From Candidatus Peregrinibacteria bacterium (GTDB taxonomy: Bacteria > Patescibacteriota > Gracilibacteria > UBA1369 > LOWO2-01-FULL-3): DNA of 64,000 nucleotides. The notes beneath the pieces were generated by a model, which was not told the DNA's origin, did not search any database, and worked only from the letters and a program-made list of their open reading frames with translations. The DNA lies in assembly GCA_043810515.1 (NCBI GenBank), contig JBDRNZ010000027.1, forward strand, positions 2,247-66,246, in the 5' to 3' direction. This document shows, one piece after another, positions 22,398-38,935 of this stretch. Both the position numbers and the translations under genes were made by a program. The stretch's first letter is position 1. Every line of letters starts with the position of its first letter.

Positions 22398-22519
22398 ATA
22401 GCCTTATTCTGACAGAACGTTTAATATATATTTGCTTTTTGCCGTATGCGGCTGTTCTGTCAATAAAATTACCTGCAACTCAAAAAGCAGGAAGATTATA
22501 TGGATACGATGCCGACAAG

Positions 22520-26577: not shown

Positions 26578-27612
26578 TTATTTCAAAGGCTTCGCGGAGT
26601 TTATTCCCATATGTTCATAAGCTTTATCAGTAACAAGCCGACCGCGCGACGTTCTCTCTAAAAAACCCGCCTGAATCAAAAATGGTTCGTAAATATCCTC
26701 AATAGTGGATTGCTCTTCGGACGTAGCTGCCGCAAGAGTATTCAATCCAACCGGTCCGCCTCCAAATTTATCAATAATAATCGACAATAGTTCGCGGTCA
26801 GTGCTGTCGAGACCTACTTTATCTATACCAATTGCCATGAGAGCATTTGTCAAAACATCATTGTCGATAATGGATTCATGATTAACATCGGCATAATCAC
26901 GAACGCGTTTTAGTAGACGATTTGCGATTCGGGGCGTATTTCGGCATGACTTTGCAAGAATTTCAGACGCACTTTCGGAAATCCGGCATTTTAAAACCGC
27001 CGCCGAACGTAAAATAACCTGTTTTATATCATCGTCAGTATAAAATTGCAGTTTAAAAACATTCCCAAACCGCCCCCTTAAAGGCGACGAAAGCATACTC
27101 ATCTTGGTAGTTGCGCCGATGAGCGTAAAATGAGGCAGATTTATACGCATATTTCTGGCGGAAGGTCCTTTTCCGATAATGATATCTATTCCAAAGTCCT
27201 CCATTGCGGTATACAAAACCTCCTCAACCACAGGCTTCAGGCGATGGATTTCATCTATAAAGAGCACATCATGATTTTCAAGATTTGAAATGATTGAGGC
27301 GATATCGCCTTGTTTTTCCAAAGCCGGCCCTGAAGTAATCTTGATATTCACATTCATTTCTTTGGCAATAATATTTGCCAGAGTGGTTTTTCCCAGACCG
27401 GGTGACCCGTGAAGAAGAACATGATCAATACATTCTCCACGTTTTTTTGCAGCCTCAATAGCAATTTTTAGATTATCTTTTAAATTTTGCTGCCCGATAA
27501 ATTCATCAAGAGTTTTTGGCCTGAGTTTATTCTCAAACTGCACCATTTTACCGGGAACGGGCGATAAAATTTTTTCCTTATTTTCCCTGTTGTCCTTTTC
27601 GCTTTGTATCAT
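26578..27612 (-). CDS. ruvB: Holliday junction branch migration helicase RuvB
   Basis: GSPGLGKTTLANIIA, IDEIHRL and a C-terminal winged helix. 344 aa. Confidence 0.95.
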   Translation of the reverse strand: MIQSEKDNRENKEKILSPVPGKMVQFENKLRPKTLDEFIGQQNLKDNLKIAIEAAKKRGECIDHVLLHGSPGLGKTTLANIIAKEMNVNIKITSGPALEKQGDIASIISNLENHDVLFIDEIHRLKPVVEEVLYTAMEDFGIDIIIGKGPSARNMRINLPHFTLIGATTKMSMLSSPLRGRFGNVFKLQFYTDDDIKQVILRSAAVLKCRISESASEILAKSCRNTPRIANRLLKRVRDYADVNHESIIDNDVLTNALMAIGIDKVGLDSTDRELLSIIIDKFGGGPVGLNTLAAATSEEQSTIEDIYEPFLIQAGFLERTSRGRLVTDKAYEHMGINSAKPLK

Positions 27613-28092
27613 CTACACATCTTTTACATGATAAATAAACTGCCGTATAGACTCGGGATCGGGAGCATTGATAAAGTTTATAATTACGGAAGAGGATGCG
27701 GTCTCCAGTCGCATCAATCCGTAATCAAAAATCCAGAAAGTTGCCAGAATACCTCTTTCCTCAGTCCTGACATCCTGGATATCATCCAAAAGCGCCTCAG
27801 CCTCATCCCTAACGGTCAAATATTTCCAGTTAACAAATATGATGCGCTGACTTGTAATGATAAGCTTATCAAGCCAGTAAATCAGGGAAACATAAACAAC
27901 GACCAGGGCAAAAATAAAAAAAACAATCAGATTGGCGACAAGAAACCCTTTGTTTGACAAAATCGACTGAAATAAAAAAATCAGCAGAAAAAACGGAAAA
28001 GAACCAATTATCACTTTAATAAGCTGCCCCACAAAAGGCAGCGGATGATGATGATAAACCTTTAAAATTTGTTCCCCTTCACGCAGCTGCAT
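27613..28092 (-). CDS. Membrane protein with a bacterial PH (bPH_2/YdbT-like) domain
   Basis: Two TM helices followed by a short soluble domain. The N-terminal L.EGE.I pattern is typical of bPH_2 proteins. Abuts the ruvB start. Confidence 0.6.
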   Translation of the reverse strand: MQLREGEQILKVYHHHPLPFVGQLIKVIIGSFPFFLLIFLFQSILSNKGFLVANLIVFFIFALVVVYVSLIYWLDKLIITSQRIIFVNWKYLTVRDEAEALLDDIQDVRTEERGILATFWIFDYGLMRLETASSSVIINFINAPDPESIRQFIYHVKDV

Positions 28093-28119
28093 AAAACTTG
28101 TAAAATAATTTGCGGTACA

Positions 28120-28875
28120 ATGTCATTCTATCTTATGAAAAAGTATTTTCAAGCACCGTGGAGCATAAAGGACATATTAATCGTGTTTTCTGTAATAATG
28201 GCCGCGACTATCGCGGCCGGCGCCGGAATGTACATATTTGATGCAAAAAACTATATCGAGGAGTCAAAATACAGGATTTTTATACTTTTTGGAATATTTT
28301 TATTGCAATGGCTGATAATTTTTGTGCCGCTTATCGCGATTACAGTTTTAAAATACAAATTAAAATTCAGGCATTTCGGATTCAAAAAAACGGGAATATG
28401 GAAAATATTAGAATTCGTCATTGGAGGTTACGTAATATATTTGGGAATAAACATCATCCTAACTCTGATAATCTTATATGCAGGCTTTAAAATCCCAGGC
28501 TACCAGCTTCAGGAAAAAATTCTACCTGTATTTGGCGACGGAACGGTAAATCTTGTGGTAGCGGGAATTATCCTGGTTTTGGTGGCACCGGTTCTGGAGG
28601 AAATATTTTTCAGAGGATTTCTGCTACGTTCATTGACAAATAAAATAGGGGCAATATACGGAACTGTATTTACAGCTGTCATTTTTGCGATTTTCCATAT
28701 GCAATGGCAGAGCATAATTCCTATATTCATACTTGGACTTATAATCAACGCAATGGTAATAAAGACCAGGTCAATCTGGCCGGGTATATATTTTCATATA
28801 TTTAATAACGCGATTGCGTTTACTCTGGAAATACTGATATTAAAAGAGGTTGTACCTTTGGATAGTGTTGTTTAA
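28120..28875 (+). CDS. CPBP-family intramembrane glutamic endopeptidase (CAAX protease/Abi-like)
   Basis: Motifs EEIFFRGFLL, FAIFHM and HIFNN in a polytopic membrane protein. The start is uncertain (ATG 28120 or 28135; the track ORF begins at TTG 28069). Confidence 0.8.
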   Translation: MSFYLMKKYFQAPWSIKDILIVFSVIMAATIAAGAGMYIFDAKNYIEESKYRIFILFGIFLLQWLIIFVPLIAITVLKYKLKFRHFGFKKTGIWKILEFVIGGYVIYLGINIILTLIILYAGFKIPGYQLQEKILPVFGDGTVNLVVAGIILVLVAPVLEEIFFRGFLLRSLTNKIGAIYGTVFTAVIFAIFHMQWQSIIPIFILGLIINAMVIKTRSIWPGIYFHIFNNAIAFTLEILILKEVVPLDSVV

Positions 28876-28894: not shown

Positions 28895-28970
28895 GCCCGA
28901 GTAGCTCAGGGGATAGAGCAGCGCCCTTCTAAGGCGAAGGTCACAGGTTCAAATCCTGTCTCGGGTACCA
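28895..28970 (+). tRNA. tRNA-Arg (anticodon TCT), CCA encoded
   Basis: 76-nt cloverleaf folded by hand: acceptor GCCCGAG/CTCGGGT (G1.U72 wobble), D arm GCTC/GAGC, anticodon stem GCGCC/GGCGA, loop CTTCTAA, T arm ACAGG-TTCAAAT-CCTGT, then ACCA. Confidence 0.9.
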
Positions 28971-30465
28971 AAATCTGACTTTTCGGAATTTTTCCTTCCA
29001 TTTTTTGGGCGAATTGAAAGGCTTGCCACTCTGTATTTGGCTTTTTTAAACCATTTTCGGGCTGGCTAATTTGCACCCTTTTCTCGGCGAGACGGAGGTT
29101 CGAGCCAAAGATTTCTTTGGCAAGCGCTTTTTTAGGGAAAAGCGCTTCATCCCTTGCGATTTTCGGCGCATTCTGCGCCGTATTTATCCATTCCCTGAAC
29201 GGTTCGAGCCAATCATTCTGCTTTTGTTCAAGATTGATGATTTGTTCTTCCAGCGTCTTCTTTTTGCTCATCAGTTCTGCTTTTCTGACTCTGTATTCCT
29301 CACGGTCAATATCCTGCTCAAGATATACATCCATAAGCCGCTGGATTTGCATGCCGATTTTATGAATTTTCTTTTGTGCCTCTTGAACAAAAGCAGAGCA
29401 GGATTGGGCGGACTGTTTTTCATCATTTTGTGCCATTTTTAAAAGATCTTCCGCCCAATCCTGTGGCAAAGAAACTTTTTGAATAAGAGCCGAAAGCTGT
29501 TTGTCTAATTCTTCTTCACGCACATAGGGTTGAGTGCAGTTGATGGTCTTGGATTTCTTGGTACAGCGATAATAGGTATGTCCTTTCTGCACCTCAGCCG
29601 TTATCATCATGTCGCACTCACTGCATGAGAATAGTCCGCAAAACGCTTTCGGCTCATTTTTCGATTGTTTTCGCGGTTTGCCTCTTTCTTTTAGCACTTC
29701 CTGTACACGATCAAAAAGTTTCTTTGCTATGATTGGCTCGTGTTTGCCTTCATGCAGTTCTCCTGTATAGCGGAAATGTCCGTAATAGAAAGGATTTTTA
29801 AGGATAAATGTGATTCTGTCTTTGTGGATTCTCTTTCCGTTACGGGATAGGACTCCTTTTTGCGCCAAAAAGTCGGAAATATCTTCAAGTCGAGCGTTGC
29901 CCTGTGCGTAAAACTCAAATGCATCTTTGATGATTTTTGATTTCTTCTTATCAACTACAATGGTTTTGTTTCGAACATCATTTATATACCCGATCGGGGC
30001 AACGCTGGGATATTCTCCACGTCGCACTTTTTGGCGCAAACCTCGCTTCGTATTTTCGGAAAGAGAATCCACATAATATTTGCTTTGCCCAAATGCAATA
30101 TTGAGCATGAATTTTCCCTGTGGTGTCGACTCAAACCAGAATTGTGGAAATTTCAATGCTTCAATACGCCCGCAATCAATAAGATAGATTATTTTCCCAC
30201 CGTCCACAGAATTGCGCGCAAGTCTATCGGGATGCCACGCCAAAATTCCGGCCGCCTCGTTGTTTTCAACTCTTTTTAGCATTTCGTTGAAGATAGGGCG
30301 GCCTGGAATTTTGGCGGATTGTTTCTCGATAAAGACTTCTGCAATAGACAAGTTTTCTTGTTTTGCGAATGTGCGCAATTCTGTGATCTGCGCATCAATA
30401 CTCAAAACCTGCTTATCTTCCACATCAGTGGACTTGCGGGCATACAAAAAGAATTTTTGCTGCAT
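28906..30465 (-). CDS. Large serine recombinase (resolvase domain + recombinase domain + zinc ribbon + coiled coil)
   Basis: FFLYARKSTD...DAQ catalytic Ser motif, DRLARN, Cys cluster CGLFSCSECD...YYRCTKK..INC and a long coiled coil. ATG at 30465. The last ~65 codons run through IR-A and into the tRNA gene, with the stop TGA at 28906-28908 in the D arm. Confidence 0.9.
   Translation of the reverse strand: MQQKFFLYARKSTDVEDKQVLSIDAQITELRTFAKQENLSIAEVFIEKQSAKIPGRPIFNEMLKRVENNEAAGILAWHPDRLARNSVDGGKIIYLIDCGRIEALKFPQFWFESTPQGKFMLNIAFGQSKYYVDSLSENTKRGLRQKVRRGEYPSVAPIGYINDVRNKTIVVDKKKSKIIKDAFEFYAQGNARLEDISDFLAQKGVLSRNGKRIHKDRITFILKNPFYYGHFRYTGELHEGKHEPIIAKKLFDRVQEVLKERGKPRKQSKNEPKAFCGLFSCSECDMMITAEVQKGHTYYRCTKKSKTINCTQPYVREEELDKQLSALIQKVSLPQDWAEDLLKMAQNDEKQSAQSCSAFVQEAQKKIHKIGMQIQRLMDVYLEQDIDREEYRVRKAELMSKKKTLEEQIINLEQKQNDWLEPFREWINTAQNAPKIARDEALFPKKALAKEIFGSNLRLAEKRVQISQPENGLKKPNTEWQAFQFAQKMEGKIPKSQILVPETGFEPVTFALEGRCSIP
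28965..29099. repeat. IR-A, left copy (135 bp)
   Basis: Reverse complement of 30735-30869 with 7 mismatches and no indels (hand alignment). Confidence 0.95.
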
Positions 30466-30604
30466 ATTCTTGAGGTTAGTGAATAGAAAATTTAAATGAC
30501 CGTCTTGGTGCAACCAACTCAGGAGAAAACCTCAAGAATTGTCCAAGACGGCCATTTAAAAAGGTTTTCTCGCCTGTGTAGTTGGTTGCACCACTATTTT
30601 ACCA
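30466..30604 (-). promoter_or_regulatory. Recombinase promoter (extended -10 TGgTAAAAT on the minus strand, 30604-30596) and a ~125-nt leader with interleaved, mutually exclusive helices
   Basis: Complementary pairs are A 30491-30508 / A' 30543-30560 (17 of 18), B 30507-30531 / B' 30563-30592, and C 30466-30477 / C' 30528-30539 (12 of 12). C abuts the ATG. Confidence 0.5.
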
Positions 30605-30734
30605 AAATTCAAACAAAATCAAAAATTCTTTTTGTTGGGCAAAGCAAACAATAGGCTGCCCGAAGTTATTTATATTTTAAATTGGTTTTCGGACAGCCTG
30701 CAAGACAGAATCACAAAATCGCAAGGGATGTCGC

Positions 30735-30869
30735 ACCTCCGTCTCGCCGAGAAAAGGGCGCAAATTAGCCAGCCCGAAAATGGCTTAAATAAGCCGAATA
30801 CAGAGTGGCAAGCCTTGCAATTCGCCCGAAAAATGGAAGGAAAAATTCCGAAAAGTCAGATTTTGGTGC
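30735..30869. repeat. IR-A, right copy (inverted)
   Basis: See the left copy. It carries the same open frame (LRLAEKR.QISQPENGL.KPNTEWQA.QFA.KMEGKIPKSQILV) on the plus strand. Confidence 0.95.
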
Positions 30870-31221
30870 AGTTATATGACACTGCTCGAACATATTTTAG
30901 AGGAACTGGGGGCTAGCCTCCAGTGAAAATTCTAAAAAACGAACGAGGGTAGGTGCGCGGTGAAGCCTGGCACCGCGCACCTGAGAAATGAGGATCTAAA
31001 AACGCGCCGCCCGAGGTTCGGGGGCGGGCGGCGCGAATAAAACACTGTCCAAATTCCAAAGTTTGATAGGGAGGGCAGGCAAAAATTCATTATTGAAAGT
31101 TATACAAAACTTTAATACAAAACTTTAATACAATGGGAAAATAAGATAAACTATAAAATAGATAGTCTGCGTAAGTGTTTTGACGGAAGGAACCACTATA
31201 TGGTTTTGAAAAAGTGAAAGA
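30865..31221. repeat. IR-B, left copy (357 bp)
   Basis: Reverse complement of 36242-36584, roughly 90% identity by hand alignment. It differs by several indels, including a 13-nt tandem duplication (acaaaactttaat, 31104-31129) found only here. Contains GC-rich hairpins at 30951-30982 and 31003-31035. Confidence 0.9.
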
Positions 31222-31301
31222 AGAAGCTGAATGGAATATTATAGAAAGATTACCTATTATATCTATTATTTGGTCGATTATTGTTCACACAATTACAATT
31301 A

Positions 31302-31958
31302 TTAATCATTTACAATTACTAAATCAGCATTCCTTAATTGCTGATTTATCCATTGTTTCTCTGCTGGTTTAATAACACTATCAAACCATATTCGTAAAGT
31401 CGATGGATCCTCATCCCTTTCCAATACATCTCTATTGTATTTTCTTTGCCACCTTATTTCTTCTGGGATATTTAAAAAAACCGAAAAAAGCTTAAGTCTC
31501 ATAGATTGAACAGTATCTAATATTTCTGGATGCATTGCATAAAGACCTTCCACTATTAATGGAGTTTTTTGAAGTCTTAAATGTGCCCATCCGTTTTGCC
31601 TTGAAAGTTCATGTGAAAAAATTGGGATTCTTGCTATTTTTTTTCTAAAAATATCTTGTAAAGTTTCTATTAAAACATTCCAATTATAACAATCTGGTGA
31701 GTCCCATTGTCTAATATTAAGTTCTGGTAAAACCAGCTCCATTTCATCTTCATTCTTGAAGTAATTATCAAGGGATAAAAGAGAAACTCCTAATTCTTCC
31801 GAGATCATTTTAGATATTGTACTTTTGCCACTACCAGTTGGACCAGAAATTAAAAGAAGATCCGGCATTTCCTTCTGGCACACCTTGGTAATATGCTCAA
31901 AAGCCAATGATTCTGAGACAACACTCATAGTACTTTCCATGTTAGCTACTATTGACAA
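31302..31958 (-). CDS. Uridine kinase / phosphoribulokinase-family P-loop nucleoside kinase
   Basis: ISGPTGSGKSTIS Walker A, LSLDNYF, DSPD and IVEGLYA spacing as in Udk. The track start at 31958 is TTG; the first ATG is at 31940. Confidence 0.75.
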   Translation of the reverse strand: MSIVANMESTMSVVSESLAFEHITKVCQKEMPDLLLISGPTGSGKSTISKMISEELGVSLLSLDNYFKNEDEMELVLPELNIRQWDSPDCYNWNVLIETLQDIFRKKIARIPIFSHELSRQNGWAHLRLQKTPLIVEGLYAMHPEILDTVQSMRLKLFSVFLNIPEEIRWQRKYNRDVLERDEDPSTLRIWFDSVIKPAEKQWINQQLRNADLVIVND

Positions 31959-32029
31959 TTTACGCTAGATTCGGTAGACTTTTCAAGCAAATAATTGTAT
32001 AATATTTCAATTCTTCATTTTTTTAAAAA

Positions 32030-33202
32030 ATGCTTACCTACAAAAAACTGGGGTCTGATGCTGATAAAGACGCTGTTCACGAGGCGACAAAGGGGTTAGA
32101 CAAGGGGCTTTTCCCTGGGGCTTTCTGCTTCATTGCCCCTGATATTGCTGACAATGATTCATATTGTTGCCTTAAGCATACAGATGGAGCGGGAAGTAAG
32201 GCGAATGTGGCATATATGGCAACAAAAGAAGGGTTTAGTAGTGATGTGTGGAAAGGAATTGCTCATGATAGCCTAGTTATGAATATTGATGATATGGCAG
32301 CGGTTGGTGCTACTGAAAATTTTCAGTTAACTAACTGTATCGACAGAAATCCGTTTATTATTTCTGATGAAGCAGTATCAAAAATTATTGAAGGATATAG
32401 GGAATCCATCGACAATCTTTCTGGTTACACAAAAATTGATATGTGTGGCGGAGAAACTGCAGATACTGGCAATAATGTGCGTACTGTAGTTGTTAATTCT
32501 GACGCTTATGCTCGAATGAAAAGAGAAGATGTAATAGATGCAAGTAGAACCAGTGTCGGAGATGTTTTGGTTGGATTCTCGTCATACGGACAATCCAAGT
32601 ACGAAGACAAATACAATTCGGGGGTTAGTAGTAATGGTTTTACTCTGTTGACTCATGCCATGCTAGACTCATCATATAAAGCAAGATATCCGGAAACTTA
32701 TGATGAAAATATATCGGAAAGTGCATATTCTGGAGAATTTAATTTGAAAACAAAAATTCCTGGTACAGATATGACATTAGGAGAGGCGATGCTTTCTCCA
32801 ACTCGTTCGTACTTGCCACTCATAAAAGCATTATTGGCAAATAATAATAATGGAATAAAAGGAATTTTTAATTGTACGGGAGGAGGGCTAACAAAACCAA
32901 TAAGATTTGGTAAAGATGTAAAGTATGTAATGGATGGCATGATTGATCCTGGTCCATTTTTTAGGTTTGTATACGAGAATTCAGATATTGAACCACATGA
33001 ATTGTACAAAACATTTAATATGGGATGTAGGTTAATAATTTCTTGTACAATAGAGGCTGTTAATGGAATTCTCAAAAGCGCTGCCGATTTTGAGATTGAA
33101 GCAAAGGTAATTGGACGAGTTGAGCAATCATTAAAAGAAGGCATTAATGAAATTGAAATAACAGATCCTCTTAGTGATGAGGTTCTTAAATATGAAAAAT
33201 AA
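32030..33202 (+). CDS. PurM/AIR-synthase-family ATP-dependent enzyme (PurM-like)
   Basis: HTDGAGSK (compare DGVGTK), NIDDMAAVGA (compare VNDL...GA) and CGGETAD (compare GGETAEMP), with N- and C-domain lengths as in PurM. Confidence 0.75.
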   Translation: MLTYKKLGSDADKDAVHEATKGLDKGLFPGAFCFIAPDIADNDSYCCLKHTDGAGSKANVAYMATKEGFSSDVWKGIAHDSLVMNIDDMAAVGATENFQLTNCIDRNPFIISDEAVSKIIEGYRESIDNLSGYTKIDMCGGETADTGNNVRTVVVNSDAYARMKREDVIDASRTSVGDVLVGFSSYGQSKYEDKYNSGVSSNGFTLLTHAMLDSSYKARYPETYDENISESAYSGEFNLKTKIPGTDMTLGEAMLSPTRSYLPLIKALLANNNNGIKGIFNCTGGGLTKPIRFGKDVKYVMDGMIDPGPFFRFVYENSDIEPHELYKTFNMGCRLIISCTIEAVNGILKSAADFEIEAKVIGRVEQSLKEGINEIEITDPLSDEVLKYEK

Positions 33203-33205
33203 TCT

Positions 33206-33826
33206 ATGACAAAAATAAAAATTGCACTTCCAAAAGGAAGGTTTTATGATAGGAGCATGGCAATTATTGCAAGAACTACCAATAGAGATTTTTGTGATAT
33301 CAAGAAGAGTAAAAAATTAGTTTTTGAATCTGAAGATTATACTTTCTTCTTATTAAAATCATCGGATATTTGTAAATTTATCTTTGATAAGAAAATTGAT
33401 ATCGGAATTGTTCCTGATGAATGGATTTTAGAATATGAATTGCAGCACAAGGTAACGTTTGATAAGCTAAAAAGGATTGAGTGGGTACATACTAGAATTA
33501 GCTTAATTTCTAAGTCTGCAAATACTATCGGCAATAATGATGTCATTGCTTCCTCTTACCCCTTTATTGTCCTTAATTATTTAGAGCAAAAGGTTCAAAT
33601 TAATAATCATCCCGATATAAAAATCTATAAACTCAATGGGTCAATTGAAGCAACTATTCCTAAAATTTTTGCATTTGGCATAGATTGTGTTGAATCGGGG
33701 AAAACTATTTCTTGTAACGACTTAGTTGAATTAGACATTATTCATGACAATTTGTCCCTATCACTTATCAAAAAAAACGGGAGCAATCTCAATTTCCATC
33801 AAATTAATAATCTATACTTAGACTAA
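33206..33826 (+). CDS. Short-form HisG-like ATP phosphoribosyltransferase
   Basis: MTKIKIALPKGRFYDRS..., ...IDIGIVPDEWILE..., ...KLNGSIEA...GIDCVESGKTISCNDL aligns by eye along the whole length with ~205-aa HisG(S) proteins. Confidence 0.7.
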   Translation: MTKIKIALPKGRFYDRSMAIIARTTNRDFCDIKKSKKLVFESEDYTFFLLKSSDICKFIFDKKIDIGIVPDEWILEYELQHKVTFDKLKRIEWVHTRISLISKSANTIGNNDVIASSYPFIVLNYLEQKVQINNHPDIKIYKLNGSIEATIPKIFAFGIDCVESGKTISCNDLVELDIIHDNLSLSLIKKNGSNLNFHQINNLYLD

Positions 33827-34446
33827 TGCTACTTACATCACTTGCAAATACTAGCCCCATACTCAGAATAGATCTGTTAATGAACAATAAGGATTTGACC
33901 ACTTTAAGTGGCTTATGCCCCTTATCAGATATTGAGAAAAATAATATTGAATCAAAGAAGGTTGTGCCTAGGACTATTCGCAACATATTATTTGCGATGA
34001 ATGTTTTGGATGAATTATTTACAGAAATTACTGGTTTTAAAAGACATATATACATATTGGGTGATGGAACCATATGGAATTTTCTTGCAAAAAATATCTT
34101 GTATAAAGATATCAATAATATTGATAAATCTTATTATCTAGAAATTATGTGCACATTGGGGTTATCATATCGTTTTAATGTGGCAAAAAAATTTGGTTAT
34201 AGTGATACTAAGGTAATGCAATTGAGACTAAACGGATGGGGTAGAGCTTATTGTTTTAGTGAAGAAAATATTGATGATTATCAGAAATTAAAAGAAGATA
34301 TGTATAAATATTGGCTTCCGGTAATTTCTAAATATAAAAGTGAATACACTGACTTAGTTATGATGTGTGACAGCACTGAAAGACCTTTGGAGGTGGAAAA
34401 AATTCATAAGATTAATGAGATTTTACCCATTAAATTGGTTACATAA
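33826..34446 (+). CDS. Hypothetical protein (206 aa), no recognisable motif
   Basis: TAATG overlap with the HisG-like gene. Its operon position supports a real CDS. Confidence 0.6.
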   Translation: MLLTSLANTSPILRIDLLMNNKDLTTLSGLCPLSDIEKNNIESKKVVPRTIRNILFAMNVLDELFTEITGFKRHIYILGDGTIWNFLAKNILYKDINNIDKSYYLEIMCTLGLSYRFNVAKKFGYSDTKVMQLRLNGWGRAYCFSEENIDDYQKLKEDMYKYWLPVISKYKSEYTDLVMMCDSTERPLEVEKIHKINEILPIKLVT

Positions 34447-34455
34447 TAAACTCTA

Positions 34456-35157
34456 ATGAACAATAAATATATTATTATCACTGGAGCCTCATCAGGCATT
34501 GGAAAATCGGTTGCTATACAGGCTGCGAAAAAAGGCTTTAATCTAATTTTATCCGGAAGAAATTCTGTGAATTTAGACACTACTGCTAAATCTTGCAAAG
34601 ATTATAGTGTTGAAGTTATTACTGTTTGTGGCGACATTACAAATCGTTTAAATCGGGAGAAAATTATAAATATCGCAAAAGATAATAAAGATATTTTTGG
34701 GCTTGTAAATGCAGCAGGTGTTGGAAAATTTGGTGATCCTGCTGAGTTGACTGATGACATGCTGGATGAAATGTTCAACATAAATGTAAAAGCAATGTTT
34801 AGTTTAAGTAGAGAAGTAATAAAAATTAAACACAAAAAGAGTTTTCTTAATATAATTAATATTAGTTCAGATTGCGATCAAGTTGCCTTTCCAGATGCAA
34901 CTGGATATTGTGCGACAAAGGGAGGTGTTTTGATGATGTCTAAGGCATTTGGATTAGCGGTTAGAAAACAAAATGTAAGAGTTACATGTATATCTCCTGG
35001 TAGAGTTGATACCCATTTTAATAATAAGAAGCCTGGAATGAGGGTAGGGGCGTTGATGCCAGAGGAAGTTGCGGAAGTTGTTATGTTTGCCATTAATGCA
35101 CATAAAAATATTGAACTTCAAGAAATACGAATCGATAGTATGTCTAGAACTTGGTAA
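34456..35157 (+). CDS. Short-chain dehydrogenase/reductase (classical SDR)
   Basis: TGASSGIGKS cofactor motif, NISS and the YCATKGG catalytic YxxxK. Confidence 0.88.
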   Translation: MNNKYIIITGASSGIGKSVAIQAAKKGFNLILSGRNSVNLDTTAKSCKDYSVEVITVCGDITNRLNREKIINIAKDNKDIFGLVNAAGVGKFGDPAELTDDMLDEMFNINVKAMFSLSREVIKIKHKKSFLNIINISSDCDQVAFPDATGYCATKGGVLMMSKAFGLAVRKQNVRVTCISPGRVDTHFNNKKPGMRVGALMPEEVAEVVMFAINAHKNIELQEIRIDSMSRTW

Positions 35158-35167
35158 ATATTCTTTC

Positions 35168-35818
35168 ATGAAATCTGTTATTTTTGATCTTGATGGCACA
35201 CTAGTAGATTCGCAACACTTGCAGTTTTTGGCTTATAAGAAAGCTTTTAGTGAAATAGAATTACCGTTAAGCTGGGATGATTGGAAAGATTATTGGGTTA
35301 AGTTTTCAATAAACGCTTATGAATGGGCGTCTATTAAAAATCTGACTTACAATGTGGAAGCCATAAGAAAAAGAAAAAAAGAAATATACGAAAGGCTTAT
35401 TAAAAGTGAATTAGAAGCTAAACCTGGTGCAATTTCTTTAGTTAATGAATTACGGAAAAACGGATTCCAATTAGCTGTGGCGTCTTCCTCTAGAATAGAG
35501 TCAATAAAGCTTATTGTTGATATGCTTTTTGATAACACTTTTGATGTTTTAGAATCTGATACTGAATTAAACAGAAGAAAGCCTCATCATGAAGTTTTTT
35601 CTATAACCATGGAAAAAATGAATACGTCTCCATCTGAAACAGTTATTATTGAAGATTCAATTAGTGGTTATAATGCCGCTATAAATTCAGGCGCAAGATG
35701 TATTATTTGTCCAGATAGCACTATTGGTGATAAACATGATTTCCCAAAGGCTCAAATGGTTGTATCTTCATTGGAAGAGTTAAGCTCAGAAGATATTGCA
35801 AAATTACTGAATAAATAA
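35168..35818 (+). CDS. HAD-IA family phosphatase (beta-phosphoglucomutase-like)
   Basis: MKSVIFDLDGTLVDS (DxDxT), AVASSS, K...EDSISGYNAAINSG. Start taken at ATG 35168, not the overlapping 35069. Confidence 0.85.
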   Translation: MKSVIFDLDGTLVDSQHLQFLAYKKAFSEIELPLSWDDWKDYWVKFSINAYEWASIKNLTYNVEAIRKRKKEIYERLIKSELEAKPGAISLVNELRKNGFQLAVASSSRIESIKLIVDMLFDNTFDVLESDTELNRRKPHHEVFSITMEKMNTSPSETVIIEDSISGYNAAINSGARCIICPDSTIGDKHDFPKAQMVVSSLEELSSEDIAKLLNK

Positions 35819-36223
35819 CTCTCTTAGTTCTTTTTGTTTTACTAAGTTTTCAACGGGTAGGAATAATTTTTTGGGTAATTTTGCGTAATTAAACCATTTC
35901 CATTCTAGGCACTTGTTAGGCTCCCTGTTCTCGATCATCCCTTTTTTAATTTGTGCCACAATAAAAACAGTTATATATTGCTTATCTTCTTTTTTGAAAT
36001 AATCATTGGTTACATGAAATGGCTTTGGACTACAGCTTATTAGAACTCCTAACTCTTCTTTTATTTCACGTATAGCACAATCGTGAAAAGATTCCCCCCA
36101 TTCAATATGTCCACCAGGCATCCCCCAAGTACCACCGCCATGAGATCCCTTTCTTAAACCTAATAAGATATTATCTTTATCGATCAGAATAACCGAAACC
36201 CCTGTGCTTGGTCTTTTCTCCAT
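35804..36223 (-). CDS. Nudix hydrolase
   Basis: Nudix box GGHIEWGESFHDCAIREIKEELGV. Convergent 15-nt overlap with the HAD gene. Confidence 0.88.
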   Translation of the reverse strand: MEKRPSTGVSVILIDKDNILLGLRKGSHGGGTWGMPGGHIEWGESFHDCAIREIKEELGVLISCSPKPFHVTNDYFKKEDKQYITVFIVAQIKKGMIENREPNKCLEWKWFNYAKLPKKLFLPVENLVKQKELRELFIQ

Positions 36224-36241
36224 AAAATAAAATTAATTACA

Positions 36242-36584
36242 TCTTTCACTTTTTCAAAACCATATAGTGGTTCCCTTCATCAAAACACTCATACAGACTA
36301 TCTATTTTATAGTTTATCTTATTTTTCCATTGTATTAAAGTTTTTGTACAACTTCCAATGTTGAATTTTGCCTGCCCGCCCTCTCAGACCTTGGAATTTG
36401 GACAGTGTTTTTATTCGCGCCGCCCGCCCCCGCCTCGGGCGACGCGGTTTTAGATCCTCATTTCTCAGGTGCGCGGTGCCAGGCTTCACCGCGCACCTAC
36501 CCACGTTCGTTTTTTAGAATTTTTACTGGAGGCTAACCTCCAGTTCCTCTAAAATATGTTCGAGCAGTGTCATATAACTGTACC
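36242..36584. repeat. IR-B, right copy (343 bp, inverted)
   Basis: See the left copy. Its hairpins are at 36467-36498 and 36416-36446. Confidence 0.9.
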
Positions 36585-36591
36585 ATTTTGA

Positions 36592-38457
36592 TTATTGCGT
36601 AACAAGCATCAGCTTGTAAATTGCGTAAGCCACTTCGCCGCGGGTCATTCCGTTTTCAGGATGAAGTTCTTTTATGTTTGAATCGATAATCCCAAGTTGT
36701 TTGGCATATGCAACATACGGAGCGAACCAGGCATCTTTGGAAACATCAGAAAAAGGAGCAGCTGTAACATTCGGATTTACATCAACCCCCATTCCGTTAA
36801 ATAAGATTTTATAGAATTCAGCCTTATTAACGGTATTCGTCGGTCTGAAAGTTCCATCGGGATAACCATCCACGACACCTTTGTTGTATGCGGTATATAG
36901 ATATTTACCATACCATTCGGAAACCGAAACATCAGGAAACGGGATGTTTCCGCTGGAAAGGATTTCCTTTATTCCTTCGAAAATAAATTTCAAAGCCTCG
37001 ACTCTGCTCACAACCTGATCCGGCCTGAAAGTACCATCGCTGTAACCATTCACAATCCCTTCACTGGCAAGATATGAAATTGCCGCGAAATAAAGACTGT
37101 TTTCCGGGACATCTGAAAAAGAAACCTGCACTTCAGGCGCTTCTATTTCAAACCACCCGGAATAAAAAACTTTATCTTCCGTTTTTAGGGCAAGTTTGTC
37201 ACGTCCGGCATCCATGCGGACAAATTTTCCATTAAGTCTGCCGGAAGAATCAAAATTTCTGTTGGTAATAATCGATGGACTGGCAGTTACATGACTATTT
37301 AGAGAACTGATAGTCATTTCACCGGCGGCACCTCCGTCAAAAGTATTCCCATACTGATCAATCATAAATATACTGAAATCTGATTCCTGTCCCACATAGT
37401 ATTTTGGACGAACATCGATTTTAAAAGTGAGAACAGGTGGCGCCAAAACCTCTTCGGGTTCCGTAACGTCAATAACCTCTGTAATTTCAGTGGAATCCGT
37501 CTCAGCGAAAGTTTCCGTAACTTCTCCGGAATCAGCTAGCGTAACCGTCTCGTCGGTAACATAAGATGAAGCGGTTATGGAATCGGACACTATGGTTCCA
37601 TCCATATACTTCTGAACATATTTCAAAGGATTGATCGTTGTAGCCATGGCCTTTTCCTTCCCAAGACCGGCATTTACAGCCGTGAAGAAATCAAGACCGG
37701 CATCCGAAGCTTCCTGCCACGTAAACGGCCAGAAAGGATGCCATGGTGCGTCAGTAGTATCTATCTGAAAATGCACATGCGGAGTAGTAGCCGTGCCGGT
37801 TTGTCCGGAAAGGGCTATTTGTTCGCCTTTTTTTACAACATCACCCTCCGAAACAAAAATATCGCTCAAATGGTTATATGACGAAAAAAGAGTCACGCTT
37901 TTATTGGGATCCTCCAGAGAAGGGAAATTTGTATGCTGAACAACAACATGATGCCCAAAACCTGAACTTTGATTTGAAACTTTCACAACAGTTCCGTTTG
38001 CAATTGAATAAACAGGAGTGCCCATCGGAACTTTTATATCAACGGCAAGATGTGATCCTCCATATTCGAGCCCGTCCAGCTTATAACTTCCCATATATGG
38101 GACAGAGTAGGTAATTTTGGAGTTTCGTATAAGATCATCATTTGAATCACCCCATTTTAGGTTGTCCGTACTGATTTTTAAGACATCGGGGTCATAAAAC
38201 GGAATATCGATAAGATCATCAGCGCTTAATGCACCGTAACTTAAATTCCATTTTGAGGAATCAAGATGAACCCAGTCAGGCACTTTCTGAACCGGATAAA
38301 CAGTTCCGTCGAAAGGCTCGTGTTCCGGATAAGAAATAATACTTGTAGTCAAAAAGTGCGAAAAATCTCCGGTGACCTGCGCAAAAAGTGACGCAACCGA
38401 CACCACGAGAAGCAAAACGCCGGCTTTTAGACCATGTTTATGACAGAATTTATGCAT
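36592..38457 (-). CDS. Secreted M23 peptidase with three C-terminal SLH (S-layer homology) repeats
   Basis: Signal-like N-terminus after ATG 38457, and M23 motifs HLAVDI and TTPHVHFQI. SLH repeats begin FSDVPENSLYFAAISYLASEGIVNGYSDGTFRP, FPDVSVSEWYGKY...GYPDGTFRP and FSDVSKDAWFAPY. Confidence 0.85.
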   Translation of the reverse strand: MHKFCHKHGLKAGVLLLVVSVASLFAQVTGDFSHFLTTSIISYPEHEPFDGTVYPVQKVPDWVHLDSSKWNLSYGALSADDLIDIPFYDPDVLKISTDNLKWGDSNDDLIRNSKITYSVPYMGSYKLDGLEYGGSHLAVDIKVPMGTPVYSIANGTVVKVSNQSSGFGHHVVVQHTNFPSLEDPNKSVTLFSSYNHLSDIFVSEGDVVKKGEQIALSGQTGTATTPHVHFQIDTTDAPWHPFWPFTWQEASDAGLDFFTAVNAGLGKEKAMATTINPLKYVQKYMDGTIVSDSITASSYVTDETVTLADSGEVTETFAETDSTEITEVIDVTEPEEVLAPPVLTFKIDVRPKYYVGQESDFSIFMIDQYGNTFDGGAAGEMTISSLNSHVTASPSIITNRNFDSSGRLNGKFVRMDAGRDKLALKTEDKVFYSGWFEIEAPEVQVSFSDVPENSLYFAAISYLASEGIVNGYSDGTFRPDQVVSRVEALKFIFEGIKEILSSGNIPFPDVSVSEWYGKYLYTAYNKGVVDGYPDGTFRPTNTVNKAEFYKILFNGMGVDVNPNVTAAPFSDVSKDAWFAPYVAYAKQLGIIDSNIKELHPENGMTRGEVAYAIYKLMLVTQ

Positions 38458-38524
38458 TTTGTGTTTGTTTTTGTTTCTAAAGATTATAAAATTATAGCAC
38501 ATCTCAGGCAAAAAAACAATTCCC

Positions 38525-38935
38525 ATGCCAATAACAAAATCAGAAACGGAAACTCTGGCCTTGGCGGCTAGAATTGCCGAAAAAATCAAAAAAGGCGGAC
38601 TCGTATGCCTCTTTGGCGAACTTGGGACAGGAAAAACCATATTCGCAAAAGGAATAGCCGATTATCTCGGAATAGATAAATTTTCCATAAAAAGTCCGAC
38701 ATACACATACATAAGACACCATTCGGGCCGCGGCGTGAATATATACCACATAGACCTTTACAGACTGGAAAAAATAGACGACCTCATGCTTCGTGAAATA
38801 AACGAACTGATCGAAAACAAGACAAACATAATAATTATGGAATGGGCGGACAGAATGGGCAACGCTCTGCCAAAAAACAGAATCGACATACATCTGAAAT
38901 ATATTGATAAAAACACTCGTGAAATAACTTTATAA
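38525..38935 (+). CDS. tsaE: tRNA t6A37 biosynthesis ATPase TsaE
   Basis: LFGELGTGKTIFAKGIA, SPTYTY and HIDLYRL form the YjeE/TsaE pattern. Confidence 0.88.
   Translation: MPITKSETETLALAARIAEKIKKGGLVCLFGELGTGKTIFAKGIADYLGIDKFSIKSPTYTYIRHHSGRGVNIYHIDLYRLEKIDDLMLREINELIENKTNIIIMEWADRMGNALPKNRIDIHLKYIDKNTREITL

What the first reader, a model, noticed from the sequence alone, without database searches (positions are those of the whole stretch)
31302..36223. Mobile 7-gene cassette: Udk-like kinase, PurM-like, HisG-like, unknown protein, SDR, HAD phosphatase and Nudix, a candidate pathway for a modified purine nucleoside or nucleotide
Seen in the sequence:
- The block between the IR-B copies is visibly more AT-rich than its surroundings (my estimate is ~30% vs ~40% GC).
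- It holds a tight plus-strand operon with gaps of 3, -1, 9 and 10 nt. The order is PurM-family enzyme, short HisG-like phosphoribosyltransferase, a 206-aa orphan, SDR, then HAD phosphatase.
- The operon is flanked by a divergent uridine-kinase-family kinase and a convergent Nudix hydrolase.
- No other his or pur genes occur in the 64 kb, and no HisZ or HisE/I partners are in the island.

Established knowledge: HisG condenses ATP with PRPP. PurM-family enzymes activate a carbonyl with ATP for ring closure or amidation. From memory, a HisG homolog plus an SDR plus an ATP-dependent purine-pathway-like enzyme forms the core of actinomycete pentostatin/coformycin clusters (penA/penB/penC, cofA/cofB). 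Those make 1,3-diazepine nucleoside inhibitors of adenosine deaminase, and their third enzyme is SAICAR-synthetase-like, not PurM-like.

Inference: the cassette may turn ATP and PRPP into a PR-ATP-derived nucleoside analogue. Nudix could stand in for the HisE pyrophosphohydrolase, the HAD enzyme could do the final dephosphorylation, and the kinase could serve activation or self-protection. Such a product could act in host, symbiont or phage interactions. I cannot name a described system with this composition on a serine-recombinase island.
Basis: partly seen in the sequence, partly recalled or inferred. Interest (0 to 1): 0.85.

Follow-up and report, generated by a model that had tools for sequence, protein, structure and literature searches.

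The report
Mobile gene cassette for unknown nucleoside
A seven-gene block riding on a small self-integrating DNA element in an ultra-small (CPR) bacterium contains a gene core that recurs from Leptospira to Streptomyces and probably builds a still-unknown nucleoside-like compound, using one enzyme family that resembles nothing of known structure.

Summary
All seven family assignments, the operon spacing and the AT-rich composition check out: 33.2% GC against 41.4 ± 1.3% elsewhere in the window.

The block is cargo of a 7.6-kb serine-integrase element inserted in the 3' end of tRNA-Arg. Two related metagenome contigs show the empty site.

The "orphan" is not an orphan. It belongs to a small family (233 clusters among 1.84 billion proteins). 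Its AlphaFold model is confident, and neither its fold nor its sequence matches anything in the PDB.

It travels with a specialised short HisG in 11 different gene architectures from at least four phyla. A PurM accompanies them in 9 of the 11. One natural protein is a HisG-orphan fusion.

These clusters carry either a reductase or an aldolase, often with a MazG or Nudix, a phosphatase, a kinase, glycosyltransferases and exporters. No paper or defence or phage library describes this set.

The pentostatin/coformycin analogy is only partly supported. There is no SAICAR-synthetase homologue. The PurM cannot be told apart from housekeeping PurM, so it probably does normal PurM chemistry.

Best reading: a mobile, undescribed pathway to a phosphoribosyl-derived imidazole or purine nucleoside. 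The product is unknown.

The parts
28895..28970 (+). tRNA-Arg(tct), the integration target. Its 3' end ...ctcggGTACCA is the left junction (B-O-P').
   Evidence: ARAGORN, Rfam 67 bits, sequence. Relatives L022 and L023 have the same tRNA followed directly by the right-flank gene.
28906..30513 (-). Large serine recombinase (535 aa). Its C-terminal codons run across the junction into the tRNA.
   Evidence: Resolvase + Recombinase + Zn_ribbon_recom. CcrB/XisF-like. GC 42.5%, like the host.
28967..29103 (.). IR-A arm 1. It encodes the recombinase C-terminus.
   Evidence: 137 nt, 95% complementary to 30731-30867.
30731..30867 (.). IR-A arm 2. It ends in an internal, inverted attP-like site (minus strand: ...catataact GCACCA aaaatctgac).
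   Evidence: The pseudo-ORF 30632-30916 reproduces the recombinase C-terminus read across this site.
30864..31221 (.). IR-B left arm. Non-coding, with host-like GC.
   Evidence: About 89-92% identical to 36242-36585 in inverted orientation. No Rfam family.
31302..31958 (-). Uridine-kinase/PRK-family nucleoside kinase (218 aa), divergent from the operon.
   Evidence: PF00485 6e-16. NF004018 96 bits, below the cut-off of 180. Nearest solved relatives are uridine/cytidine kinases. Retained in L001, L007, L012 and L035.
32030..33202 (+). Long-form PurM (AIR synthetase type, 390 aa).
   Evidence: AIRS/AIRS_C. E 7e-91 to PDB 3kiz and 3mdo. 78% identical to the stand-alone PurM P0181, which lies near purF and purD.
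33206..33826 (+). Short-form HisG-type PRPP transferase (206 aa) of a cluster-specific subfamily.
   Evidence: PF01634 4e-16. TIGR00070 74.0 bits against a cut-off of 75.75. PKGR motif and PRPP loop DCVESGKT are kept. Derived xDEW signature.
33826..34446 (+). 206-aa protein of an uncharacterised family. It is the constant partner of the HisG-like enzyme.
   Evidence: No Pfam, NCBIfam, PADLOC, PHROG or PDB hit. AF2 pLDDT 89, pTM 0.87, with no fold match. 233 family clusters. Fusions to HisG, to a class II aldolase and to FolB-HPPK.
34456..35157 (+). Classical SDR (233 aa), probable ketoreductase of the pathway.
   Evidence: adh_short 2e-41. 39-45% identical to the SDRs of the marine, Leptospira, alphaproteobacterial and Dryocola clusters.
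35168..35818 (+). HAD-IA phosphatase (216 aa from the ATG at 35168).
   Evidence: HAD_2 7e-28. Start set by homology.
35804..36223 (-). MutT-type Nudix hydrolase (139 aa), convergent with HAD and overlapping it by 15 nt.
   Evidence: NUDIX 1e-21. Nearest solved relatives are 4kyx, AtNUDX1, NUDT15 and MTH1. Present in L012, L013 and L035-37.
36242..36585 (.). IR-B right arm. It ends at the right junction (...catataact GTACCA ttttgattattg), P-O-B'.
   Evidence: In L022 and L023 the downstream M23-peptidase gene (36592-38640) directly follows the tRNA.

Best explanation
**What it is**
- Window 28971-36585 is a 7.6-kb integrative element made of a large serine recombinase and cargo. It is inserted in the 3' end of tRNA-Arg in a Peregrinibacteria-like (CPR) genome.
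- The cargo is a self-contained pathway for a phosphoribosyl-derived imidazole or purine nucleoside-type metabolite.
- Its conserved core is a specialised short HisG-type PRPP transferase, an uncharacterised 206-aa enzyme, a PurM, and a ketoreductase.

**Proposed order.** It follows the gene order PurM-HisG-206aa-SDR-HAD. Every step is inferred, not shown.
1. PurM performs ordinary PurM chemistry, an ATP-driven closure of a formamide plus an amidine. This gives 5-aminoimidazole ribotide or a very close analogue.
2. The HisG-like enzyme transfers 5-phosphoribosyl from PRPP onto a nitrogen of a purine or aminoimidazole nucleotide. My preferred acceptor is the PurM product. The classical alternative is ATP.
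3. The 206-aa enzyme acts directly on that N-phosphoribosyl product. It most likely converts it to a ketose-type (Amadori-like) intermediate.
4. The SDR reduces the carbonyl. Other lineages cleave it with an aldolase instead.
5. HAD removes the phosphate to release a nucleoside.

**Accessory enzymes.** The Nudix removes pyrophosphate from a triphosphate intermediate (HisE-like) or cleans up a toxic triphosphate. The kinase serves re-activation or self-protection.
For: **Mobility (shown)**
- The junctions read tRNA|GTACCA|recombinase arm and IR-B|GTACCA|flank.
- L023 and L022 are empty sites. There the tRNA-Arg is followed within about 40 nt by the gene found at window 36592.
- Homology to L011 stops at 31299 and 35821, and the flanks are unrelated.
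- In L035 and L036 the cassette plus an IR-B remnant abuts a different tRNA-Arg, the gcg isoacceptor.
- The cassette GC lies about 6.5 SD below the rest of the window.

**Module (shown)**
- HisG-like and the 206-aa protein co-occur in 11 distinct architectures. PurM is present in 9 of them.
- Gene order is shuffled between architectures. The loci come from CPR bacteria, alpha- and gammaproteobacteria, Leptospira plasmids and Streptomyces plasmids.
- P0162 is a natural HisG-206aa fusion encoded next to a PurM gene.
- P0169 is a class II aldolase-206aa fusion.
- Each cluster has either an SDR or AKR (6 architectures) or an aldolase (3 architectures). In none of the stretches I examined did both appear. 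Some loci were annotated only in part.

**Chemistry (inferred)**
- All HisG-likes keep the PKGR motif and the PRPP loop. They share a derived xDEW signature.
- PurM was recruited in both long and short forms and stays housekeeping-like.
- MazG or Nudix, phosphatases, nucleoside or nucleotide kinases, an ADA domain, glycosyltransferases and MFS or MATE exporters accompany the core.
- The host class is reported to make PRPP and nucleotides but few amino acids.
Against: - No product, substrate or activity has been measured for any of these proteins.
- No HisG homologue is known to use AIR as acceptor.
- The recurrent MazG or Nudix fits an NTP acceptor such as ATP better than it fits AIR.
- PurM could be only a precursor-supply or housekeeping gene that hitch-hikes with the cluster.
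- The 206-aa protein could be a non-catalytic partner of the short HisG.
- The window's cassette has no exporter or glycosyltransferase, so a secreted product is not implied here.
- Gene order matching reaction order is weak evidence in bacteria.
- The degenerate copy L007 lacks PurM and SDR, and L018 lacks PurM, so the core is not absolute.
- The count of 11 architectures comes from about 20 loci, not from a census of all 233 family clusters.
Confidence: 0.6

Rival explanations
1. One reading: a coformycin/pentostatin-like route.
1. HisG makes PR-ATP.
2. Nudix acts as HisE.
3. Ring opening and isomerisation give a PRFAR-like intermediate.
4. The PurM-like enzyme replaces the SAICAR-synthetase homologue (CofB/PenC) in ATP-dependent cyclisation to an 8-keto-diazepine.
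5. The SDR reduces it, as CofA/PenB do, and HAD dephosphorylates it.

The product would be an adenosine-deaminase inhibitor.
For: - HisG, an SDR, an ATP-using purine-pathway enzyme and a phosphatase are present together.
- MazG or Nudix recurs with the core.
- One version (L014) encodes an adenosine-deaminase-domain/kinase fusion.
- Recruitment of HisG homologues into nucleoside-antibiotic clusters has precedent (PMC12648386, PMC13055916).
Against: - No SAICAR-synthetase homologue appears in any locus.
- The PurM is indistinguishable from housekeeping PurM and was recruited repeatedly in long and short forms. This argues for FGAM-like chemistry, not chemistry on PRFAR.
- The SDR is replaced by aldolases in some versions. 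That does not fit an 8-keto reduction.
- The CPR host class is reported to lack amino-acid pathways, so HisI and HisA would be missing.
- I could not test whether the SDR is an orthologue of PenB or CofA.
Confidence: 0.15
2. An ordinary nucleotide-metabolism patch. The cassette would simply supply a reduced genome with PurM, a nucleoside kinase, a nucleotidase and a Nudix cleaner. HisG-like, SDR and the 206-aa protein would be incidental or decaying passengers.
For: - The cassette PurM is 78% identical to a stand-alone, apparently housekeeping PurM and carries the same lineage-specific residues.
- Peribacteria are reported to have de novo nucleotide synthesis.
- The kinase, HAD and Nudix are generic salvage-type families.
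- HisG is frameshifted in L035-37, and the cassette is degenerate in L007.
Against: - The same HisG-like, 206-aa, PurM and SDR set is kept in organisms with complete his and pur pathways. In Dryocola, Leptospira and Streptomyces it lies on plasmids or conjugative elements.
- HisG-206aa fusions exist.
- All seven genes are intact and 53-86% conserved across Peregrinibacteria copies.
- There is no his pathway for the HisG to feed.
Confidence: 0.1
3. The 206-aa protein is not an enzyme. It would be an activating or regulatory subunit for the short-form HisG, an analogue of HisZ or of the C-terminal domain of long HisG. The pathway chemistry would then lie in HisG, PurM and the SDR alone.
For: - All cluster HisGs are short forms without HisZ or a regulatory domain.
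- The 206-aa gene is always beside or fused to HisG. In the fusion it sits C-terminal to HisG, where long HisG carries its regulatory domain.
Against: - The family has an extremely conserved polar motif (YRFNVAxKFG...QLRLNGWGR) with invariant D, R, K, N, Q and W residues. This is typical of an active or substrate site.
- It is also fused to a class II aldolase and to FolB-HPPK in loci where HisG is a separate gene.
Confidence: 0.15
4. An anti-phage or conflict system. The cassette would make or destroy a nucleotide analogue inside the cell to block phage replication, like viperin-type or nucleotide-depletion defences carried on mobile islands.
For: - It sits on an integrative island.
- A kinase, a Nudix and a phosphatase are common in nucleotide-based defences.
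- The Nudix hits the PADLOC candidate PDC-S07.
Against: - No PADLOC model matches the PurM, HisG-like, 206-aa, SDR or HAD proteins. No PHROG matches the HisG-like or 206-aa proteins.
- Related clusters carry MFS or MATE exporters and glycosyltransferases, which points to a secreted small molecule.
- There is no sensor or effector component.
Confidence: 0.07

Closest known systems
Pentostatin/coformycin/adechlorin-type nucleoside-antibiotic clusters of Actinomycetota (PenA/PenB/PenC, CofA/CofB, AdeC/AdeA)
   Same: - They recruit a HisG homologue and an SDR together with an ATP-using enzyme taken from purine biosynthesis.
- A phosphatase finishes the nucleoside (PMC12648386, PMC13055916).
   Different: - Their defining ATP-using enzyme is a SAICAR-synthetase (PurC) homologue. 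Here it is PurM, and no PurC-like gene is present.
- They have no 206-aa family member.
- They depend on the host's HisI, HisE and HisA or PriA.
- Those described are actinomycete clusters. This module spans CPR bacteria, Proteobacteria, Spirochaetes and Actinomycetota, and some versions use aldolases instead of the SDR.
First steps of histidine biosynthesis (HisG, then HisE)
   Same: - A short-form HisG fold with an intact PRPP loop.
- It is frequently paired with an NTP pyrophosphohydrolase, MazG or Nudix.
   Different: - No HisZ, HisI, HisA, HisF or HisH is present.
- The window's HisG scores just below the equivalog cut-off.
- It carries subfamily-specific changes (xDEW in place of GKD).
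- The host lineage is reported to lack amino-acid pathways.
Tryptophan-pathway logic (TrpD, TrpF, TrpC, TrpA). This is a works-like comparison from general knowledge, not homology.
   Same: - PRPP-dependent N-ribosylation of an aromatic amine, then Amadori isomerisation to a ketose, then further processing that includes a retro-aldol cleavage.
- This matches the inferred order of HisG-like, then the 206-aa protein, then reductase or aldolase.
   Different: - None of the proteins is homologous to TrpD, TrpF, TrpC or TrpA.
- The acceptor and the isomerase activity are inferred only from fusions and gene content.
Tubercidin-type clusters with a PRPP transferase, a reductase and a Nudix (PMC6112128. 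I saw only the abstract. The enzyme roles are from my own knowledge.)
   Same: A nucleoside-antibiotic pathway that combines a PRPP-dependent base-ribosylating enzyme, a reductase and a Nudix hydrolase acting on the nucleotide product.
   Different: - It makes a 7-deazapurine through GTP cyclohydrolase and radical-SAM enzymes.
- Its transferase and reductase belong to other families.
- It has no PurM and no 206-aa protein.
tRNA-targeting integrative islands with large serine recombinases (SCC Ccr and XisF-type recombinases are the nearest named models)
   Same: - Resolvase + Recombinase + Zn-ribbon architecture.
- A short common core at both junctions.
- The element restores the tRNA 3' end.
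- An empty site exists in relatives.
   Different: - It has an extra inverted attP-like site inside the element.
- Two pairs of long inverted repeats separately bracket the recombinase and the cargo. I cannot explain this arrangement.

Membership tests
Pentostatin/coformycin-type cluster | HisG homologue in the cluster | tested here: met
   PF01634 4e-16.
Pentostatin/coformycin-type cluster | SAICAR-synthetase (PurC) homologue as the cyclising enzyme (PenC/CofB/AdeA) | tested here: not met
   None of the seven proteins hits SAICAR_synt. It does not appear in the Pfam lists or annotations of any related locus.
Pentostatin/coformycin-type cluster | SDR orthologous to PenB/CofA that reduces the 8-keto group | tested here: inconclusive
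   A classical SDR is present. No PenB or CofA sequence was available to compare, and there is no close PDB relative.
Pentostatin/coformycin-type cluster | Host HisE, HisI and HisA to deliver PRFAR | not testable with these tools
   Only 64 kb of the genome is visible. None was found among the 20 flanking proteins tested. The related class is reported to lack most amino-acid pathways.
Canonical ATP phosphoribosyltransferase HisG (histidine biosynthesis) | Passes the curated equivalog model TIGR00070 | tested here: not met
   74.0 bits against a cut-off of 75.75. Some cluster relatives pass: L004 131, L006 110, L010 88.
Canonical ATP phosphoribosyltransferase HisG (histidine biosynthesis) | PRPP-binding loop and N-terminal PKGR motif | tested here: met
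   LPKGR and DCVESGKT align with the canonical MPKGR and DIVSTGQT.
Canonical ATP phosphoribosyltransferase HisG (histidine biosynthesis) | Short form partnered with HisZ, or long form with a regulatory domain, in a his gene context | tested here: not met
   The protein is a 206-aa short form. No HisZ-like or other his gene is in the island or among the tested flanks.
PurM (AIR synthetase) | AIRS and AIRS_C domains and close similarity to long-form PurM | tested here: met
   - Both domains hit.
- E 7e-91 to PDB 3kiz and 3mdo.
- 64 of 76 housekeeping-invariant columns are kept. The 12 differences are shared with stand-alone PurMs of the same lineage.
- TIGR00878 is not reached (107.7 against 236). 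The other long-form PurM I scored, Leptospira L010, also falls short at 94 bits.
PurM (AIR synthetase) | Converts FGAM to AIR | not testable with these tools
   Needs purM complementation or an enzyme assay.
Integrative element with a large serine recombinase | Recombinase domain architecture, a short shared core at both junctions, and an empty site in relatives | tested here: met
Known anti-phage defence systems (PADLOC) | Core proteins match a defence-system model | tested here: not met
   Only generic P-loop hits for the kinase and a Nudix hit to the candidate PDC-S07.

The most novel reading that the evidence does not exclude
- The HisG-like, 206-aa and PurM core is an undescribed pathway found across several phyla. 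It makes a new class of phosphoribosyl-derived imidazole or purine nucleoside.
- Its key step is catalysed by a protein family with a new fold.
- In this window the pathway is ready-packaged on a tRNA-Arg-targeting serine-integrase element and moves between ultra-small CPR bacteria.
- That would give these episymbionts a bioactive nucleoside, an antimetabolite or an enzyme inhibitor, for dealing with hosts or competitors.
Probability: 0.45. Interest if true: 0.85.

Novelty: new variant of a known kind. Interest (0 to 1): 0.72.

Why it matters
- **A missed kind of cluster.** Nucleoside-type natural products are a proven source of drugs, such as pentostatin, vidarabine and tubercidin. The review read here (PMC12648386) says antiSMASH fails to predict most purine-derived nucleoside-antibiotic clusters.
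- **A concrete search handle.** A small, highly conserved 206-aa family always sits beside a specialised HisG. This picks out an unexplored cluster type on Leptospira interrogans plasmids, Streptomyces plasmids, rhizobial-type loci, an enterobacterial conjugative element and CPR genomes.
- **CPR biology.** CPR bacteria are thought to have minimal metabolism. A mobile, complete small-molecule pathway in one of them would be unusual. It hints at chemical interaction with hosts.
- **Enzymology.** The 206-aa protein has a confident predicted structure with no match. That makes it a good candidate for new enzymology.
- **A testable question.** The repeated recruitment of unmodified PurM asks how aminoimidazole ribotide chemistry is used outside purine and thiamine synthesis.

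Tried and rejected
1. **PurM specialisation (rejected).** I first inferred that the cassette PurM had changed specificity. Nine CPR copies share substitutions at 12 of 76 columns that are invariant in housekeeping long PurMs, including D148N, R208T/A, H281N, K301M and E336I. The stand-alone PurMs P0181 and P0184 carry the same residues, and P0181 nests among the cassette copies. The substitutions are a lineage trait.
2. **Exact empty site.** The reconstructed attB string was not found in metagenomes. A relaxed search with the tRNA end alone found the empty sites.
3. **Fold and homology of the 206-aa protein.** All of these gave nothing meaningful:
   - Pfam, NCBIfam, PADLOC and PHROGs
   - a per-member Pfam scan at E up to 5
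   - sequence and profile searches of the PDB, which gave only spurious LRR hits
   - Foldseek against the PDB and BFVD
4. **Inverted repeats as RNA.** There are no Rfam matches in IR-A or IR-B. Promoter and terminator scans are at chance level.
5. **HisG-206aa fusion model.** An AlphaFold model of the fusion was abandoned.
6. **Literature.** Eight keyword searches found no description of this gene set. The primary coformycin paper is not held.
7. **Pterin link.** L018 combines GTP cyclohydrolase I, a FolB-HPPK-206aa fusion and a DHPS-like gene with HisG and MazG. I did not extend this to the window, which has no pterin genes.
8. **Sugar-phosphate module.** I considered that the aldolase, transketolase and FBPase-like genes only regenerate ribose-5-phosphate. 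This cannot be excluded. It would weaken the argument that the ketose is either reduced or cleaved.

Full report
**1.

The mechanical HAD ORF starts at 35069. Homologues align only from the ATG at 35168, which gives a 216-aa protein. With that start the plus-strand operon has gaps of 3, -1, 9 and 10 nt. HAD and Nudix converge with a 15-nt overlap that is also seen in another copy.

Profile searches confirm PRK/uridine-kinase, AIRS + AIRS_C, HisG, adh_short, HAD and NUDIX. The 206-aa protein matches nothing.

The cassette is 33.2% GC. The rest of the window averages 41.4 ± 1.3% in 233 same-sized windows, with a minimum of 37.8%. The recombinase and both repeat pairs have host-like GC, so the cargo differs from both the host and its own carrier.

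Twenty mid-sized flanking proteins are all housekeeping. They include trigger factor, RNase HII, RmlA/B/D, ProRS, AspRS, RuvB and NadA/NadC. None is a his or pur gene.

**2. It is cargo of an integrative element, and the empty site exists**

A large serine recombinase (Resolvase + Recombinase + Zn-ribbon) overlaps tRNA-Arg(tct). The three junctions read as follows.

| Site | Position | Sequence | Reading |
|---|---|---|---|
| 1 | ~28970 | tRNA...ctcgg\|GTACCA\|aaaatctgac | B-O-P' |
| 3 | ~36585 | ...catataact\|GTACCA\|ttttgattattg | P-O-B' |
| 2 | ~30867, minus strand | ...catataact\|GCACCA\|aaaatctgac | internal, inverted, attP-like |

They define an element at 28971-36585, which is 7.6 kb.

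Searching metagenomes for the tRNA 3' end found two relatives. In L023 the window's upstream genes (26797-28875) precede the tRNA, and the window's downstream genes (from 36608) follow it after about 40 nt. L022 shows the same downstream join. The recombinase and cassette are therefore an insertion.

Three further results support movement.
- Homology to the Peregrinibacteria locus L011 ends at 31299 and 35821, and the flanks are unrelated.
- In L035 and L036, the 80%-identical copies, an IR-B remnant runs directly into the 3' end of a different tRNA-Arg, the gcg isoacceptor. L035 has a DDE transposase on the other side.
- IR-A and IR-B occur nowhere else in the window.

I cannot explain why the element carries an inverted attP-like site. 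I also cannot explain why long inverted repeats bracket the recombinase and the cargo separately.

**3. The "orphan" is a conserved family and the best marker of the system**

- It has 28 relatives in the word-indexed search.
- A full HMMER pass finds 233 representative clusters among 1.84 billion proteins.
- The alignment shows the motif G-[LFM]-x-YRFN-[VA]-A-x-KFG...Q-[LV]-RLN-[GS]-WG-[RK]. D62, Y76, D80, R116, N118, K122, Q132, R134, N136, W138 and R186 are invariant.
- AlphaFold gives a confident model with pLDDT 89 and pTM 0.87.
- Foldseek finds nothing in the PDB (best E 0.35, TM below 0.3) or in BFVD.
- Sequence and profile searches of the PDB give nothing real.

**4. The gene set recurs well beyond common descent of one operon**

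I saw eleven distinct architectures.

| Architecture | Loci | Content |
|---|---|---|
| CPR type | window, L001, L012, L035-37 | kinase, PurM, HisG, 206aa, SDR, HAD, with or without Nudix |
| Degenerate CPR copy | L007 | HisG, truncated 206aa, HAD, kinase |
| Marine 343-kb contig | L004/L005 | SDR-HisG-PurM-206aa |
| Rhizobial type | L006, L008 | 206aa, class I aldolase, split transketolase, PurM, IMPase-like, HisG, glycosyltransferase, MFS |
| Streptomyces anulatus plasmids | L009 | PurM, MazG, HisG-like, 206aa, aldo/keto reductase, kinase, HAD |
| Leptospira interrogans plasmids | L010 | MATE, MazG, GT4, PurM, hisG, SDR, GT8, 206aa |
| Alphaproteobacterial MAG | L014 | core plus an adenosine-deaminase/kinase fusion, HAD, glycosyltransferase |
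| Dryocola | L015 | bare four-gene core beside TraU and TraG |
| Fusion locus | L016 | PurM + HisG-206aa fusion |
| Pterin locus | L018 | HisG, pterin genes, class II aldolase, FolB-HPPK-206aa fusion, MazG |
| Aldolase-fusion locus | L020 | MazG, HisG, transketolase, aldolase-206aa fusion, PurM |

HisG-like accompanies the 206-aa gene in all eleven. PurM is present in nine.

No paper in the library describes this set. PADLOC and PHROGs do not describe it either.

**5. What the individual enzymes say**

*HisG-like.*
- All cluster copies keep the N-terminal PKGR motif and the PRPP loop [DE]-C-V-E-[TS]-G-x-T.
- They share a derived x-[DE]-E-W in place of the canonical G-K-D, and an extra conserved Trp.
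- Several pass NCBI's hisG cut-off. The window's copy just misses it.
- This looks like one specialised subfamily that co-evolves with the 206-aa protein.
- PRPP use is likely. The acceptor is open.

*PurM.*
- The window's copy belongs to the long form, E 7e-91 to PDB 3kiz.
- I first took 12 changed invariant residues for specialisation. That was wrong.
  - P0181 (78% identical) sits alone beside rpsT, about 6 kb from purF, purD and folD.
  - P0184 (73%) is also stand-alone.
  - Both carry the same 12 residues. P0181 nests inside the cassette diversity.
- Elsewhere the cluster PurMs keep all 76 invariants. This holds for Leptospira, Dryocola and L014.
- Other cluster PurMs are short forms that pass the PurM equivalog cut-off. 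These are L006, L016 and L020.
- A core component that is repeatedly replaced by ordinary PurMs most simply does ordinary PurM chemistry.

*Accessory enzymes.*
- The Nudix groups with MutT, NUDX1, NUDT15 and MTH1, which convert NTP to NMP + PPi.
- The MazGs of other versions are HisE-sized. One gives a weak PRA-PH hit.
- The kinase is nearest to uridine/cytidine kinases.

**6. Mechanism (inference)**

Natural fusions usually join neighbouring steps. HisG-206aa and aldolase-206aa fusions therefore suggest the order HisG, then the 206-aa protein, then aldolase.

Clusters carry either a reductase (SDR or AKR) or an aldolase. In the stretches I examined, none carried both. This suggests a shared carbonyl (ketose-type) intermediate that is either reduced or cleaved. 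The 206-aa protein would then sit where an Amadori-type isomerase, or a ring-opening step, would act on an N-phosphoribosyl compound.

With PurM doing normal chemistry, the simplest linear scheme is this.
1. PurM makes an aminoimidazole ribotide.
2. The HisG-like enzyme phosphoribosylates it with PRPP.
3. The 206-aa enzyme isomerises the product.
4. The SDR reduces it.
5. HAD dephosphorylates it.

This order is the gene order in the window.

The alternative acceptor is ATP. It explains MazG or Nudix better, as a HisE-like step. It leaves PurM's role unclear.

I put about 0.6 on the general statement, a dedicated and mobile nucleoside-type pathway with this step logic. I put much less on any particular acceptor or product.

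**7. Comparison with the known**

The closest described systems are the actinomycete pentostatin, coformycin and adechlorin clusters. They recruit HisG and an SDR (PMC12648386, PMC13055916).

This module fails their defining feature, a SAICAR-synthetase homologue. It adds a new protein family. It also has a far wider host range.

The host class is reported to make nucleotides and PRPP but few amino acids (PMC4736985). The HisG here therefore does not feed histidine synthesis. The HisI and HisA steps needed by a coformycin route would be missing.

I file it as a new variant of the kind [quoted passage not shown]. I do not file it as a member of the pentostatin type.

**8. Verdict**

Mobility, recurrence and the nucleoside-pathway idea hold. 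The specific diazepine analogy is weakened.

The finding is real, undescribed in the sources I could search, and experimentally tractable. Interest 0.72.

Noticed in passing
window 28967-29103 / 30731-30867 and 30864-31221 / 36242-36585: The element holds an internal, inverted attP-like site at about 30867 (core GCACCA instead of GTACCA). As a result one inverted-repeat pair brackets the recombinase gene and a second pair brackets the cargo. I have no explanation for how this arose or whether the segments invert.
   Followed up: partly
window 28906-28970 and 30632-30916: The recombinase C-terminus is translated across the attachment junction into the tRNA gene (...VPETGFEPVTFALEGRCSIP). The 94-aa ORF at 30632-30916 reproduces the alternative C-terminus (...KSQILVQLYDTARTYFRGTGG) that the protein would have across an intact attP.
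   Followed up: partly
window 30940-31040 and 36410-36510 (inside IR-B): Two GC-rich hairpins (GGTGCGCGGTG...CACCGCGCACC and CGCGCCGCCCG...CGGGCGGCGCG) sit in a genome of about 42% GC. There is no Rfam match and no T-tract terminator signature.
   Followed up: partly
L035 9380-10010 (also L036, L037): In three samples the HisG-like gene of the 80%-identical cassette is split by a frameshift at a lysine-rich run. An intact version of the same protein exists elsewhere (P0030). This could be decay, phase variation or a recurrent homopolymer error.
   Followed up: partly
L007 7397-9922: A relative of the window organism (ClpB and S1 synteny with window 21285-24370) carries a degenerate version of the cassette. 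It has HisG-like, a truncated 206-aa gene, HAD and the kinase. It lacks PurM and the SDR.
   Followed up: no
L018 694-10888: A distant member of the 206-aa family is fused to FolB + HPPK. Its cluster also holds HisG, GTP cyclohydrolase I, a DHPS-like pterin-binding protein, a class II aldolase, a nitroreductase and MazG. This may be a pterin-linked variant of the pathway.
   Followed up: partly
L014 3873-5813: The alphaproteobacterial version of the cluster encodes a 646-aa fusion of an adenosine-deaminase domain and an APH-type kinase. It also encodes an NDK-like protein.
   Followed up: no
L013 (PXEJ01000157.1, 3.9 kb): A contig binned as a 'Cyanobacteria bacterium' MAG carries cassette genes that are 70-79% identical to the window's. 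This is probably a mis-binned CPR contig.
   Followed up: no
L038 14501-15805: The CPR genome with the stand-alone PurM also encodes a RuBisCO large subunit, plus purF, purD and folD on the same contig. This fits reports of nucleotide-linked RuBisCO in Peregrinibacteria.
   Followed up: no
window 49142-50206 and 56998-58077: Two paralogous proteins of about 355 aa have an N-terminal sigma-70 region-4 domain. One also has a HARE-HTH domain. Neither shows the other sigma regions.
   Followed up: no
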